Shown here one piece after another: positions 1 through 2,363 of a stretch of DNA of 2,363 nucleotides. Below the pieces are notes generated by a model. The model was not told where the DNA came from, did no database searches, and saw nothing but the letters and a program-made list of their open reading frames with translations. The DNA is from a phage, in the sequence record PZ049727.1; one strand, written 5' to 3'. Numbering within the stretch: the first letter of the stretch is position 1; every line of letters begins with the position of its first letter. The position numbers were made by a program, and so were the translations under genes.

Positions 1-2
1 CA

Positions 3-251
3 TGGGCGGACTACCAGCTGTTCGGCAAGACCTTCTTCGACACCCTGGACTACCTCACCACCAATTGGTTGATGCCGCTGGGCGGGCTGGGCACGGTGCT
101 GTTCACCGGCTGGGTGCTGCAGCGTCACGTGGTCAGCGAGGCCATCGGCATTCGCAACGCCGGGCTGTTCCAGGCCTGGTGGAAGCTGCTGCGCTACGGC
201 ACGCCGGTGGCTATCGTGCTGGTATTCCTCAACCTGCTCGGGCTGATCTAG
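3..251 (+). CDS. C-terminal fragment of an integral membrane protein, probably a secondary transporter (sodium-dependent/NSS-like family is a best guess); 5' end lies outside the window
   Basis: Frame 3 is open from the window edge to TAG at 249-251. Translation ...WADYQLFGKTFFDTLDYLTTNWLMPLGGLGTVLFTGWVLQRHVVSEAIGIRNAGLFQAWWKLLRYGTPVAIVLVFLNLLGLI* is hydrophobic and TM-like with strong G/C third-position bias. The listed ORF 69..251 is the Met-initiated tail of this frame. The overlapping frame-2 ORF 2..439 is Arg/Ala/Gly-rich and reads through the terminators, so it is taken as spurious. Family assignment is from memory of sequence character only. Confidence 0.6.
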   Translation, partial: WADYQLFGKTFFDTLDYLTTNWLMPLGGLGTVLFTGWVLQRHVVSEAIGIRNAGLFQAWWKLLRYGTPVAIVLVFLNLLGLI

Positions 252-282: not shown

Positions 283-300
283 CGGTGGGCTGAAGCCCAC
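283..300 (+). repeat. GC-rich hairpin without T-tract (GGTGGGC-tgaa-GCCCAC), a near copy of the terminator hairpin at 383-400
   Basis: Stem 284-289 (GTGGGC) is the reverse complement of 294-299 (GCCCAC), with loop tgaa 290-293. It is followed by ggtacaagg, not a T run. It shares the GGTGGGCT / AGCCCAC core with 383-400. Confidence 0.4.
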
Positions 301-338: not shown

Positions 339-382
339 GGTGGGCTCAGGTCCATCCATCGAGGCCGACGCCGGCCTTGGTG

Positions 383-406
383 GGTGGGCTTCAGCCCACC
401 TTTTTT
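383..406 (+). terminator. Rho-independent terminator-like hairpin plus T6; probable DNA target structure of the group IIC intron inserted 3 nt downstream
   Basis: Perfect 7-bp stem GGTGGGC (383-389) / GCCCACC (394-400), loop ttca (390-393), then TTTTTT (401-406). The intron 5' end GTGCG starts at 410. Class C group II introns are known to home downstream of intrinsic terminator stem-loops. Confidence 0.7.
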
Positions 407-409
407 ATG

Positions 410-740
410 GTGCGCCAGGCATGGCGCGTAGCGCCGTGACTGGCGCTGTCGGGTTCACTGTGGTGGTGAGCCTGGCGACTTGGAGGTGAAAGTCCTCTAC
501 ACACCCGGCAAGGGGAAGTGTTAGCTGAAGGCAAGGGTGTCGCGGGCGACTGCGAATCTGAAGGAAGCCCGAGGCAAAATGCTGGCCTGACGAACAGGAA
601 GCGGATGAGGCGGCGCAGCGGGGTGAGGTGGCCATAATCGCCAAAGCCCGATACTTGCACGGAACGCTGCGACGTAGATCCGACAGGCATAAGCAGGAAG
701 GTCGCGCGAATTACCCTGGGAGATCTGTACGCTTGCCATT
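410..740 (+). ncRNA. Group II intron ribozyme 5' portion (domains I-III), non-coding
   Basis: About 330 nt between the 5' splice site and the RT ORF. It contains GC-rich helical segments and the motif GGCAAGGGTGTCGCGGGCGACTGCGAATCTGAAGGAAGCCCGAGGCAAAA (about 529-578). From memory, this closely resembles conserved domain I sequence of known class C introns such as the Oceanobacillus iheyensis intron. The domain limits were not folded and the 3' limit here is arbitrary (ORF start). Confidence 0.6.
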
Positions 741-2261
741 GTGCTACCGATTGTCGAGAGGCGACGGGATGGGCGTGCAGAAGTCAGCCGAGGCCGTAGT
801 AAGTGGCGGTCAACCACGCCATCAAGGGCCGAACAGGTCATGCCGCCAGTAGGCGTCAGCGTCTCGTCGATAACCGAAATGCAGAAATTTCTCCAAGAGA
901 AGACTGTCACCCCGAGTCCCGGCCAGAGGCCGAGGATGACGCCTGACAGCGCAGAGGTATCGACGGCGTCGGTGACGTGGACGAACGCGGAGCCGGACAC
1001 GCTGATGGAGCGGGTGCTTGCACCGGCGAATCTCAAGCGTGCGTATCAGCGCGTGGTCAGCAACAAGGGGGCGCCGGGTGCCGATGGCATGACGGTCGCC
1101 GACTTGGCAGGCTACGTGAAACAGTATTGGCCCATCCTGAAGGTCAGGCTGCTGGCAGGTGAATACCATCCCCAGGCAGTGCGGGCGGTCGAAATTCCCA
1201 AACCGCAGGGCGGTATGCGGCAACTGGGCATTCCCAGTGTCGTGGATCGCCTGATCCAGCAAGCCCTGCTGCAACAGCTCACGCCGATCTTCGATCCGCT
1301 GTTCTCGGACTATAGCTACGGCTTCCGTCCGGGCAGAAGCGCTCACCAGGCTGTCGAGATGGCCCGCACCCATGTGGCGGCGGGTCATAGGTGTTGCGTG
1401 GAACTCGATCTGGAGAAGTTCTTTGATCGGGTCAACCACGACATCCTGATGTTCTGTGTTGAGCGCCATGTCGAAGACAAACAGGTGCTCAGACTCATCC
1501 GCCGTTACCTCGAAGCGGGCGTCATGTCGGGCGGGGTTGTCAGCCATCGGCAGGAGGGGGCGCCGCAAGGCGGCCCGCTTTCGCCGCTGCTATCGAACAT
1601 CCTGCTCGATGAACTCGACCGTGAGTTGGAGCGGCGAGGCCATCGCTTCGTGCGCTATGCCGATGACGCGAACATTTATGTCCGTAGTCCGCGTGCTGGC
1701 GAACGAGTGCTGGCCAGTGTCGAGCGGTTCCTGAATCACCGTCTGAAACTGAGACTGAATCGGGACAAGAGTCGCGTGGCTGGGTCGTGGAAATGCGACT
1801 ACCTGGGGTATGGGATGAGTTGGCACTCGCAGCCTAGACTGCGAGTGGCAACCATGAGCCTGCGCCGTGTGCGCGACCGTCTCAGGGAACTGCTGCGAGG
1901 GGTGCGGGGCCACAAGATGGCGAATGTCATCGAGCGGGTAAACCCGGTGCTGCGAGGCTGGGCAGGCTACTTCAAGCTCAGCCAGAGCAAGCGTCCACTG
2001 GAAGAGCTGGATGGCTGGGTCAGGCACAAACTTCGCTGTGTCATCTGGCGGCAATGGAAGCAGCCCTCTACGAGGGCGCGCAACCTGATGCGCCTGGGAT
2101 TGAGCGAGGAGCGTGCCTGCAAGTCGGCCTTCAATGGCCGAGGCCCGTGGTGGAACTCAGGAGCGCCGCATGTGAATCAGGCGCTGCCGAAGAAGCTATG
2201 GGACAGACTTGGACTGGTCTCGATACTGGATACGATCAATCGGCTTAACCGCATGGCCTGA
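741..2261 (+). CDS. Group II intron-encoded reverse transcriptase/maturase (RT domain plus domain X, no DNA endonuclease domain); true start codon probably internal to this maximal ORF
   Basis: 506-aa maximal ORF from GTG 741 to TGA 2259-2261. Recognisable motifs are RT0 LMERVLAPANLKRAYQRVVSNKGAPGADGMT (from 1002), RT1-2 VEIPKPQGGMRQLGIPSVVDRLIQQA...YGFRPGRSAHQAV, RT3-4 LDLEKFFDRVNHDIL, RT5 GAPQGGPLSPLLSNILLDELD...FVRYADDANIYV (YADD at 1656-1667), RT6-7 LKLRLNRDKSRV, and domain X/maturase RGWAGYFK (1953-1976) followed by RHKLRCVIWRQWK. No Cys-rich or HNH motifs occur C-terminal to domain X. The N-terminal ~65 codons are Arg-rich and low-complexity and probably overlap ribozyme RNA. Candidate real starts are ATG 840, ATG 879, ATG 936 (preceded by AGAGG at 925-929, 6-nt spacer) and ATG 1005. 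Confidence 0.93.
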   Translation: MLPIVERRRDGRAEVSRGRSKWRSTTPSRAEQVMPPVGVSVSSITEMQKFLQEKTVTPSPGQRPRMTPDSAEVSTASVTWTNAEPDTLMERVLAPANLKRAYQRVVSNKGAPGADGMTVADLAGYVKQYWPILKVRLLAGEYHPQAVRAVEIPKPQGGMRQLGIPSVVDRLIQQALLQQLTPIFDPLFSDYSYGFRPGRSAHQAVEMARTHVAAGHRCCVELDLEKFFDRVNHDILMFCVERHVEDKQVLRLIRRYLEAGVMSGGVVSHRQEGAPQGGPLSPLLSNILLDELDRELERRGHRFVRYADDANIYVRSPRAGERVLASVERFLNHRLKLRLNRDKSRVAGSWKCDYLGYGMSWHSQPRLRVATMSLRRVRDRLRELLRGVRGHKMANVIERVNPVLRGWAGYFKLSQSKRPLEELDGWVRHKLRCVIWRQWKQPSTRARNLMRLGLSEERACKSAFNGRGPWWNSGAPHVNQALPKKLWDRLGLVSILDTINRLNRMA

Positions 2262-2262
2262 A

Positions 2263-2292
2263 CCGCCGTGTACGGAACCGTACGCACGGTGG
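2263..2292 (+). ncRNA. Group II intron domain V (catalytic hairpin)
   Basis: The lower stem pairs CCGCC (2263-2267) with GGTGG (2288-2292), including one G-U pair, and contains a CGC triad at 2264-2266. A 2-nt AC bulge sits at 2286-2287 on the 3' strand. The upper stem pairs GTGTACG (2268-2274) with CGTACGC (2279-2285), with loop GAAC (2275-2278). This is the canonical domain V architecture: about 14 bp, a 2-nt bulge and a triad near the base. It starts 2 nt after the RT stop codon. Confidence 0.8.
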
Positions 2293-2294
2293 TG

Positions 2295-2332
2295 TGGGAG
2301 GACGGCGGCCGTGAGGCCGCCTCCTACCCGAT
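2295..2332 (+). ncRNA. Group II intron domain VI with bulged branch-point adenosine, and 3' end of intron
   Basis: Distal stem GGCGGCC (2304-2310) / GGCCGCC (2315-2321) with GNRA-type loop GTGA (2311-2314). Proximal stem GGGAGGA (2296-2302) pairs with TCCT (2322-2325) and CCC (2327-2329), leaving A2326 bulged, which is the expected branch-point geometry. The intron is inferred to end 6-7 nt later, at ...GAT (2332). Confidence 0.65.
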
Positions 2333-2363
2333 CGCGACGCCATTGCGCCAGACGACATGTGCG

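What the first reader, a model, noticed from the sequence alone, without database searches (positions are those of the whole stretch)
629..643. Candidate EBS1 loop (CATAATC) complementary to the 5' exon end (TATG)
A small stem, TGGC (629-632) paired with GCCA (640-643), presents the loop CATAATC (633-639). CATA (633-636) is the exact complement of TATG (406-409), which lies immediately upstream of the 5' splice site. Alternatively ATAA (634-637) pairs with TTAT (405-408). Short 3-4 nt IBS1-EBS1 pairings are typical of class C introns. If correct, this defines target specificity and confirms the 5' boundary.
Basis: inference. Interest (0 to 1): 0.35.

Follow-up and report, generated by a model that had tools for sequence, protein, structure and literature searches.

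The report
EBS1 loop of a IIC intron
The flagged loop really is the short guide sequence (EBS1) that a bacterial class C group II intron uses to pair with the last four bases before its insertion point, which is a correct call of an ordinary, already well-described feature.

Summary
The window carries a complete class C (IIC) group II intron at 410-2332, inserted after a hairpin plus T-run. Five metagenome contigs hold the uninterrupted site ...TTTTTTATG|CGCGACGCC, which fixes both boundaries independently of EBS1.

CATA (633-636) is EBS1 and TATG (406-409) is IBS1. A single CATA is no more than chance (9 matches in the window, 8.0 expected). The evidence is comparative. Across 57 distinct insertion sites of this intron and its relatives, exon -1 to -4 pair with intron 633 to 636 in 56, 57, 55 and 49 sites. 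Ten different loop 4-mers are each matched by a complementary exon end (ACAA/TTGT, AAGC/GCTT, GCAA/TTGC and others). The loop aligns, without gaps, with the AUAA EBS1 of the crystallised O. iheyensis IIC intron.

Correction: the conserved, covarying stem is GGUG 627-630 with CGCC 639-642, giving an 8-nt loop at 631-638. C633-G409 covaries, so it belongs to the helix. A637-U405 is possible but cannot be tested.

This is known biology and of low interest.

The parts
339..400 (+). Upstream stem-loop of the 5' exon. It is a long imperfect hairpin (arms 339-367 and 372-400). Its distal part, 383-400 (GGUGGGC UUCA GCCCACC), looks like an intrinsic terminator stem. This is the structural part of the IIC target.
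   Evidence: the repeat finder pair I2. Folds (z = -3.1 and -7.2). All 57 related insertion sites have a stable hairpin within the 40 nt upstream (dG -12.5 to -32.4).
401..406 (+). T-run (U6) between the hairpin and IBS1. Its last T (406) is also IBS1 position -4.
   Evidence: T-runs are present at nearly all related sites.
406..409 (+). IBS1 (UAUG), the last four nucleotides of the 5' exon.
   Evidence: Covaries with 633-636 across 57 sites. The exon end is fixed by empty-site contigs.
410..2332 (+). Complete class C (IIC) group II intron, 1923 nt, running from 5' GUGCG to AU 3'.
   Evidence: Rfam RF02001, RF01998 and RF00029. Plasmid matches begin at window 400-401 or 409-410 and end at 2332-2334. 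Empty sites join 409 directly to 2333. Several contigs are exactly 1923 nt long.
621..649 (+). EBS1-bearing (ID3-type) hairpin. Outer helix is 621-624 with 646-649. Inner helix is 627-630 (GGUG) with 639-642 (CGCC). The terminal loop is 631-638 (GCCAUAAU).
   Evidence: Inner helix is 100% paired with 3 of 4 pairs compensatory; the outer helix is invariant. Rfam structure line. Minimum-free-energy fold.
633..636 (+). EBS1 (CAUA). It pairs C633:G409, A634:U408, U635:A407 and A636:U406. A637:U405 is a possible fifth pair.
   Evidence: Paired in 56, 57, 55 and 49 of 57 sites. All four pairs show changes on both sides, with 0 of 500 shuffles reaching the score. Other registers give 69-120 of 236 cells paired, against 225 of 236 here.
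677..677 (+). Candidate EBS3 (G within GUAGAU 674-679). It is homologous to O. iheyensis A223.
   Evidence: Alignment to O.i. GUAAAU with A223 = EBS3. With G at this position, the 3' exon +1 is C or T in 48 of 49 sites. This is an inference; the covariation is weak.
840..2261 (+). Intron-encoded protein (reverse transcriptase plus maturase, no endonuclease domain), encoded in domain IV. The start is at ATG 840 (as annotated in the 99.8% identical plasmid copy) or ATG 879.
   Evidence: Pfam RVT_1 (1.7e-43) and GIIM (3.3e-23) only. The ltrA annotation in NZ_ON248939.1 maps to 840-2261. ORF 741-2261.
2261..2332 (+). Domains V and VI. Domain V has the IIC-type CGC triad (in ACCGCCGUGUAC).
   Evidence: Rfam RF00029, 48.4 bits. 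Sequence read.
2333..2333 (+). [quoted passage not shown]
   Evidence: Empty-site junction. C or T dominates at +1 across sites.

Best explanation
Positions 633-636 (CAUA) are the exon-binding site 1 (EBS1) of a complete, probably active, class C (IIC) group II intron at 410-2332. They lie in the 8-nt terminal loop of the ID3-type hairpin, whose stem is 627-630 with 639-642. EBS1 forms a 4-bp helix with IBS1 (UAUG, 406-409), the last nucleotides of the 5' exon; a fifth pair with A637 is possible.

In forward splicing this helix holds the 5' exon and sets the 5' splice site at 409|410. In retromobility the same pairing, now with DNA, selects the insertion point. It acts together with recognition of the upstream hairpin plus T-run, and with a single EBS3-IBS3 pair (probably G677:C2333).

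Specificity is loose. U635 accepts A or G at -3. Position -4 can be mismatched. This fits an element that spreads to many different terminators.

Shown here: the boundaries, the covariation, and the homology of the loop to the O. iheyensis EBS1 loop. Inferred from work on other IIC introns: the roles in splicing and in reverse splicing.
For: Intron identity: Rfam RF02001 540-709 (139 bits), RF01998 745-829 and RF00029 2261-2332. The intron-encoded protein has RVT_1 and GIIM only.

Boundaries: five metagenome contigs contain the exact joined exons. Four of them align at about 97% identity over about 438 nt of the joined flanks.

Covariation: 80 related loci were fetched, giving 57 distinct full-flank sites. 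Exon -1 to -4 pair with 633-636 in 56, 57, 55 and 49 of the 57. The loop 4-mer / exon-end combinations are CATA/TATG, TGTG or CATG; ACAA/TTGT (18 sites); AAAC/GTTT; CAAC/GTTG; CAAT/ATTG; CCAA/TTGG; AAGC/GCTT; CAAA/TTTG; GCAA/TTGC; and CACA/CGTG. Short contigs add AACA/TGTT and AATG/CGTT.

Formal count: all 4 IBS1-EBS1 pairs show double changes; 0 of 500 shuffles reach the covariation score; slid controls give 30-55% of cells paired, against 96.7% for the structure.

Homology: O. iheyensis EBS1 AUAA with 5' exon UUAU (PMC3669008) falls on 633-636 in an ungapped alignment.

Literature: IIC introns have a 3-4 bp IBS1-EBS1 pairing, no EBS2, and a terminator stem-loop in place of IBS2. EBS1 and IBS1 mutations abolish correct splicing of B.h.I1 (PMC1702495).
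Against: A single 4-nt complement is at chance level in this window, so everything rests on comparison.

Two sites do not fit. L026 has loop CATA and flank CTTG, giving only 2 bp. L069 has loop CAAA and flank GCTT. L069 is explained as a mosaic in which the hairpin segment was replaced after insertion. L026 is unexplained.

Position -4 is mismatched in 8 of 57 sites.

Most sites come from a few expanded lineages, so cell counts overstate the number of independent events. The independent evidence is the set of distinct EBS1 types (ten among the full-flank sites).

No splicing or mobility experiment exists for this particular intron.
Confidence: 0.93

Rival explanations
1. The match is chance complementarity. 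The loop has some other role, or none, and the 4-nt match to the exon end is coincidental.
For: CATA occurs 9 times in the window against 8.0 expected. A second CATA lies at 688 in domain I.
Against: The complementarity follows the loop sequence through ten different 4-mers at 57 sites. No other register and no shuffle comes close. The loop is homologous to the crystallographically defined EBS1 loop of O. iheyensis.
Confidence: 0.01
2. The invariant TG before GTGCG belongs to the intron, or is a target-site duplication. The true 5' end would then lie upstream of 410, and the 'IBS1' would be intron sequence.
For: Positions -1 and -2 (TG) are invariant among all copies that carry the CATA loop, including about 25 copies at least 99% identical to the window intron.
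Against: Empty-site contigs retain ...TTTTTTATG directly joined to CGCGAC. So ATG is exon sequence, and nothing is duplicated. In related lineages -1 and -2 change together with 633 and 634, while GUGCG stays fixed.
Confidence: 0.01
3. Target choice is made essentially by the hairpin plus T-run, through the protein or the RNA tertiary structure. The 633-636 pairing would be a minor or dispensable contributor that merely reflects where reverse splicing happens to be tolerated.
For: Every site has a hairpin and usually a T-run. Positions -4 and -5 are mostly T regardless of lineage, and the T-run alone could explain that. Mismatches at -3 and -4 are tolerated. IIC introns are reported to depend on the stem-loop as well (PMC1702495; PMC7161350).
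Against: Positions -1 to -3 are not explained by terminator composition. They differ between lineages exactly as the loop does. In B.h.I1, IBS1 and EBS1 mutations are more damaging than deleting the stem-loop (PMC1702495). This rival describes an additional determinant rather than a replacement.
Confidence: 0.05

Closest known systems
Oceanobacillus iheyensis O.i.I1 group IIC intron (crystal structures, e.g. 3BWP and 4FAQ series)
   Same: The domain I architecture is the same over the Rfam RF02001 region. The EBS1 hairpin aligns without gaps: GAG, 4-bp stem, GC-NNNN-NN loop, 4-bp stem, AAAG. EBS1 occupies loop positions 3-6 in both. EBS1-IBS1 is 4 bp. The EBS3 position (A223 in GUAAAU) corresponds to G677 in GUAGAU. 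Domain V has the CGC triad.
   Different: EBS1 is CAUA here rather than AUAA, so IBS1 is UAUG rather than UUAU. EBS3 is G rather than A. The stem sequences differ. This intron carries an intact protein-coding ORF, whereas the crystallised constructs lack it. The O.i. sequence used for the alignment was recalled from memory; only four residue numbers and the EBS1/IBS1 letters were checked against PMC3669008.
Bacillus halodurans B.h.I1 (biochemically characterised IIC intron; Toor et al. 2006, PMC1702495; Robart et al. 2007)
   Same: It sits after a terminator stem-loop plus U-run. It has a 3-4 bp IBS1-EBS1 pairing, no IBS2/EBS2, and a single IBS3-EBS3 pair. There are multiple genomic copies with different 5' exons.
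   Different: It is a different lineage and host (Pseudomonas/Stutzerimonas here).
The same intron in public records, annotated ltrA group II intron reverse transcriptase/maturase
   Same: It is 99.8% identical over 401-2333 to P. aeruginosa plasmid p30Pae2-KPC (NZ_ON248939.1). The protein is 99-100% identical in Pseudomonas sp. HS-2, S. chloritidismutans AW-1 (at least 12 sites), P. nitroreducens TX1 (at least 8 sites) and others.
   Different: Those copies lie at other terminators. Public annotation names only the protein, not the ribozyme, EBS1 or the boundaries.
IIC-attC introns (e.g. S.ma.I2)
   Same: They belong to the same ribozyme class.
   Different: They insert into integron attC sites. 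All sites seen here are hairpin plus T-run, so this intron belongs to the terminator-targeting group.

Membership tests
Group II intron, class C (IIC) | Ribozyme with conserved domain I core, domain V and domain VI, and 5' GUGYG ... AY 3' ends | tested here: met
   Rfam RF02001 (139 bits), RF01998 (55 bits) and RF00029 (48 bits), all above their gathering scores. GUGCG at 410-414 and AU at 2331-2332. Boundaries fixed by empty sites.
Group II intron, class C (IIC) | Domain V with a CGC catalytic triad in place of AGC, and the conserved AGGAA-containing bulge in domain I (PMC1702495) | tested here: met
   Read directly from the sequence: ACCGCCGUGUAC at 2262-2273, and AAUCUGAAGGAAGCC at 556-570 aligned to the model consensus. 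The helix length of domain V was not measured.
Group II intron, class C (IIC) | Short (3-4 bp) IBS1-EBS1 pairing from the ID3 terminal loop to the last nucleotides of the 5' exon | tested here: met
   633-636 with 406-409. All four pairs covary. Paired in 49 to 57 of 57 sites, depending on the position.
Group II intron, class C (IIC) | No IBS2-EBS2 pairing; a stem-loop occupies the IBS2 position in the 5' exon | tested here: met
   Copies of the same intron at least 99% identical sit behind about 25 different hairpins. Their sequences at -7 to -30 share nothing except the T-run, so no sequence-specific IBS2 can exist. Every site folds into a hairpin. Absence of an EBS2 loop in the RNA was not examined separately.
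Group II intron, class C (IIC) | Insertion after intrinsic terminator motifs, outside genes, in the orientation of transcription | tested here: met
   Hairpin 339-400 plus U6, downstream of an SNF-family transporter gene on the same strand and upstream of an HPPD gene. The same pattern is seen at the related sites.
Group II intron, class C (IIC) | Intron-encoded protein with RT and maturase (X) domains but no DNA endonuclease domain | tested here: met
   Pfam finds RVT_1 and GIIM only. There is no HNH or other endonuclease hit at E <= 0.001.
Group II intron, class C (IIC) | Single IBS3-EBS3 pair for 3' exon recognition (as in IIB) | tested here: inconclusive
   G677 (homologous to O.i. A223) can pair with C2333. 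With G677 the +1 base is C (32), T (16) or G (1). With A or T at 677 the pattern is mixed: 2 of 4 and 3 of 5 sites are pairable.
Group II intron, class C (IIC) | Catalytic self-splicing and retromobility | not testable with these tools
   Indirect evidence only: dozens of near-identical copies at different sites within single genomes, and an intact ORF.

The most novel reading that the evidence does not exclude
The EBS1 hairpin may behave as an exchangeable cassette. In Pseudomonas sp. NFX224, copy L069 is 99-100% identical to a co-resident copy (L067) except for a patch of about 70 nt (intron nt 166-237). That patch carries the ID3/EBS1 hairpin and matches another lineage (L041-like). As a result its EBS1 (CAAA) no longer matches its own 5' exon (GCTT). 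If such patch exchange between co-resident introns is recurrent, it would be a natural way of retargeting IIC introns. It would also help explain why this one family shows at least a dozen EBS1 4-mers on otherwise similar ribozymes.
Probability: 0.3. Interest if true: 0.35.

Novelty: already known. Interest (0 to 1): 0.12.

Why it matters
It correctly annotates the ribozyme part of an intron that public records label only by its protein. The annotation covers exact boundaries (410-2332), EBS1 (633-636), IBS1 (406-409), a probable EBS3/IBS3 pair, and the target hairpin.

That is useful for genome annotation, and for understanding why this element breaks Pseudomonas assemblies and accumulates behind terminators.

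The natural series of matched EBS1/IBS1 variants is a clean illustration of the 4-bp specificity rule for IIC introns, including the tolerance of G at -3 and mismatches at -4. It adds no new principle.

Tried and rejected
It is 78% paired, has no compensatory change, and three of its pairs break in relatives. The 627-630/639-642 register is 100% paired with 3 compensatory pairs.

They are the same register shifted by one pair. What can be said is that C633:G409 is part of the helix, and that A637:U405 cannot be tested because A637 is invariant and -5 lies in the T-run.

(3) Significance from the window alone: the count of CATA is at expectation.

(4) Robart et al. 2007 (PMC1871835) could not be read because it is not held.

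(5) My first attempt to map 5' ends by local alignment failed for the diverged lineages. It was redone from BLAST coordinates.

(6) The distance from hairpin to splice site, taken from minimum-free-energy folds of 40 nt, was uninformative. Upstream A-runs pair with the T-run.

(7) Pfam on the 82-aa upstream fragment gave nothing. The gene was identified from the empty-site contig instead.

(8) A direct sequence comparison with B.h.I1, or an O.i. sequence fetched by a tool, was not possible.

Full report
**What is in the window.**
- Rfam covariance models identify a group II intron on the + strand. RF02001 (domain I segment) matches 540-709 at 139 bits. RF01998 matches 745-829. RF00029 (domains V and VI) matches 2261-2332.
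- An ORF ending at 2261 encodes a reverse transcriptase plus maturase and has no endonuclease domain.
- A plasmid search found 300 records. Full-length matches begin at window 400-401 or 409-410 and end at 2332-2334. The best is a 99.8% identical copy in a P. aeruginosa plasmid, annotated only as ltrA.

**Boundaries.**
- I searched metagenome contigs for the exact sequence that would result from removing 410-2332: CAGCCCACCTTTTTTATG + CGCGACGCCATT. Five contigs contain it.
- Four of the five align at about 97% identity over about 438 nt of the joined window flanks.
- The element is therefore an insertion of exactly 410-2332 (1923 nt). No alternative placement is possible, because G409 differs from T2332 and G410 differs from C2333.
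- Several assembly contigs of related genomes are exactly 1923 nt long.
- The 5' splice site at 409|410 is thus established without using EBS1.

**Checking the observation.**
- The 4-nt complement alone is not evidence. CATA occurs 9 times in the window, against 8.0 expected.
- The stem is misdrawn. The minimum-free-energy fold and the Rfam alignment pair GGUG 627-630 with CGCC 639-642, leaving an 8-nt loop, GCCAUAAU, at 631-638.
- Over 23 distinct related sequences this stem is 100% paired, with compensatory changes in 3 of 4 pairs (G-C to A-U; U-G to A-U or C-G).

**The decisive test: other copies with other flanks.**
- The intron-encoded protein retrieved 80 loci from Pseudomonas, Stutzerimonas and a few other genera.
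- I mapped the 5' end, the hairpin and the 3' end in each locus. This gave 57 distinct sites with full flanks.
- About 25 copies at least 99% identical to the window intron (loop GCCATAAT) sit behind about 25 different hairpins. Their flanks end in TTATG, TTGTG or TCATG.
- So -1 G and -2 T are fixed. Position -3 is A or G, and both pair with U635. Position -4 is T or sometimes C.
- Related lineages with other loops have the matching exon ends:

| Loop 4-mer | Exon end |
|---|---|
| ACAA | TTGT (18 sites in P. putida 31753 and others) |
| AAAC | GTTT |
| CAAC | GTTG |
| CAAT | ATTG |
| CCAA | TTGG |
| AAGC | GCTT |
| CAAA | TTTG |
| GCAA | TTGC |
| CACA | CGTG |
| AACA (short contigs) | TGTT |
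| AATG (short contigs) | CGTT |

- Exon -1, -2, -3 and -4 pair with 633, 634, 635 and 636 in 56, 57, 55 and 49 of 57 sites.
- In that register 225 of 236 cells pair. In nine other registers 69-120 of 236 pair.
- The formal count gives changes on both sides in all four pairs. No shuffle out of 500 reaches the covariation score. Slid controls give 30-55% of cells paired, against 96.7% for the structure.
- Many sites come from a few expanded lineages. The independent evidence is the number of distinct EBS1/IBS1 types, not the number of cells.

**Homology to a characterised IIC intron.**
- PMC3669008 states that the native 5' exon of O. iheyensis O.i.I1 is UUAU, its EBS1 is AUAA, and its EBS3 is A223.
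- I wrote the O.i. sequence from memory. I checked that its numbering reproduces A223, A287, G359 and C377 as named in that paper.
- O.i. 169-198 aligns to window 621-650 without gaps. Its AUAA (181-184) falls on window 633-636.
- The Rfam consensus loop GCaaaacA agrees with this placement.
- By the same alignment, O.i. A223 in GUAAAU corresponds to G677 in GUAGAU. With G at that position, the first base of the 3' exon is C or T in 48 of 49 sites. G677:C2333 is therefore a reasonable EBS3-IBS3 pair, although the covariation is weak.

- ATAA 634-637 with TTAT 405-408 is the same helix shifted by one pair.
- C633:G409 clearly belongs to the helix, since it covaries.
- A637:U405 can form in 54 of 57 sites. 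However, A637 never varies and -5 lies in the T-run, so that pair is neither supported nor excluded.

**Mechanism.**
- Shown here: the boundaries, the EBS1-IBS1 covariation, the conserved hairpin, the hairpin plus T-run at every site, and the absence of any shared IBS2-like sequence among 5' exons of identical copies.
- Taken from work on other IIC introns: a 3-4 bp IBS1-EBS1 pairing, no EBS2, a terminator stem-loop taking the place of IBS2, loss of correct splicing when EBS1 or IBS1 is mutated, and insertion after terminators (PMC1702495; PMC4424553; PMC7161350).
- In this window the stem-loop is unusually long, with 29-nt arms at 339-367 and 372-400. It is built from REP-like copies of GGTGGGCTGAAGCCCAC.
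- The intron lies between an SNF-family transporter gene and an HPPD gene.

**Exceptions.**
- L069 (loop CAAA, flank GCTT) differs from a co-resident copy, L067, at 20 positions. Fifteen of these lie in intron nt 166-237, which is the EBS1 hairpin region. There it matches another lineage.
- Its exon end matches the EBS1 of L067. The likely explanation is that the hairpin segment was replaced after insertion.
- L026 (loop CATA, flank CTTG) has only two pairs and remains unexplained.

**Verdict.** This is a textbook feature of a known class of element. The element itself is widespread and already present in annotated public records.

Noticed in passing
L069 intron nt 166-237 (locus about 1197-1268), compared with L067, L043 and L041: This is a mosaic intron copy. 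It is 99-100% identical to co-resident copy L067 except for a patch of about 70 nt covering the EBS1 hairpin, and that patch matches the L041 lineage. Its EBS1 (CAAA) therefore mismatches its own 5' exon (GCTT). This suggests patch exchange (gene conversion) of the specificity hairpin between intron lineages.
   Followed up: partly
window 284-300, 339-355, 383-399; hairpin 339-400: There are three copies of a palindromic REP-like unit, GGTGGGCTGAAGCCCAC; 383-399 is the reverse complement of 284-300. A long imperfect hairpin (29-nt arms) ends directly at the T-run before the intron. The 'terminator' targeted here is built from repeat elements.
   Followed up: partly
window 677 and 2333: A probable EBS3 (G677 in GUAGAU, homologous to O. 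iheyensis A223) pairs with the first 3' exon base, C2333. Across related sites with G at this position, the +1 base is C (32), T (16) or G (1).
   Followed up: partly
L017, L018, L019, L020: Four assemblies labelled as different Pseudomonas species carry the intron at an identical site, with the same 40 nt upstream and 12 nt downstream. This suggests the occupied locus itself lies on horizontally shared DNA.
   Followed up: no
L004, L027, L046, L074 and other contigs of about 1920-1930 nt: Whole contigs equal the intron, some with high coverage in the record title (L004, L027, L046). Some keep only the 1-7 exon bases that all copies share, which is the IBS1. The intron is a multicopy repeat that breaks assemblies: at least 12 sites in S. 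chloritidismutans AW-1, at least 8 in P. nitroreducens TX1, and at least 19 in P. putida 31753.
   Followed up: no
L026 (MAG Pseudomonas sp. VLC_060), 5' junction: The loop is CATA but the exon end is CTTG, so only two IBS1-EBS1 pairs can form. This is an unexplained poorly matched insertion site.
   Followed up: no
window 2-251; empty-site contig L083 2373-5055: The upstream gene is an SNF-family sodium symporter; the window holds its last ~80 codons. The gene downstream of the insertion site is a 4-hydroxyphenylpyruvate dioxygenase. The intron is intergenic.
   Followed up: yes
window 410-540 versus 560-700, compared across L027-L080: The first 130 nt of the intron are only 80-85% identical to the diverged lineages, while the 560-700 segment is 91-96% identical. 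This may be uneven conservation, or it may be further mosaicism within domain I.
   Followed up: no
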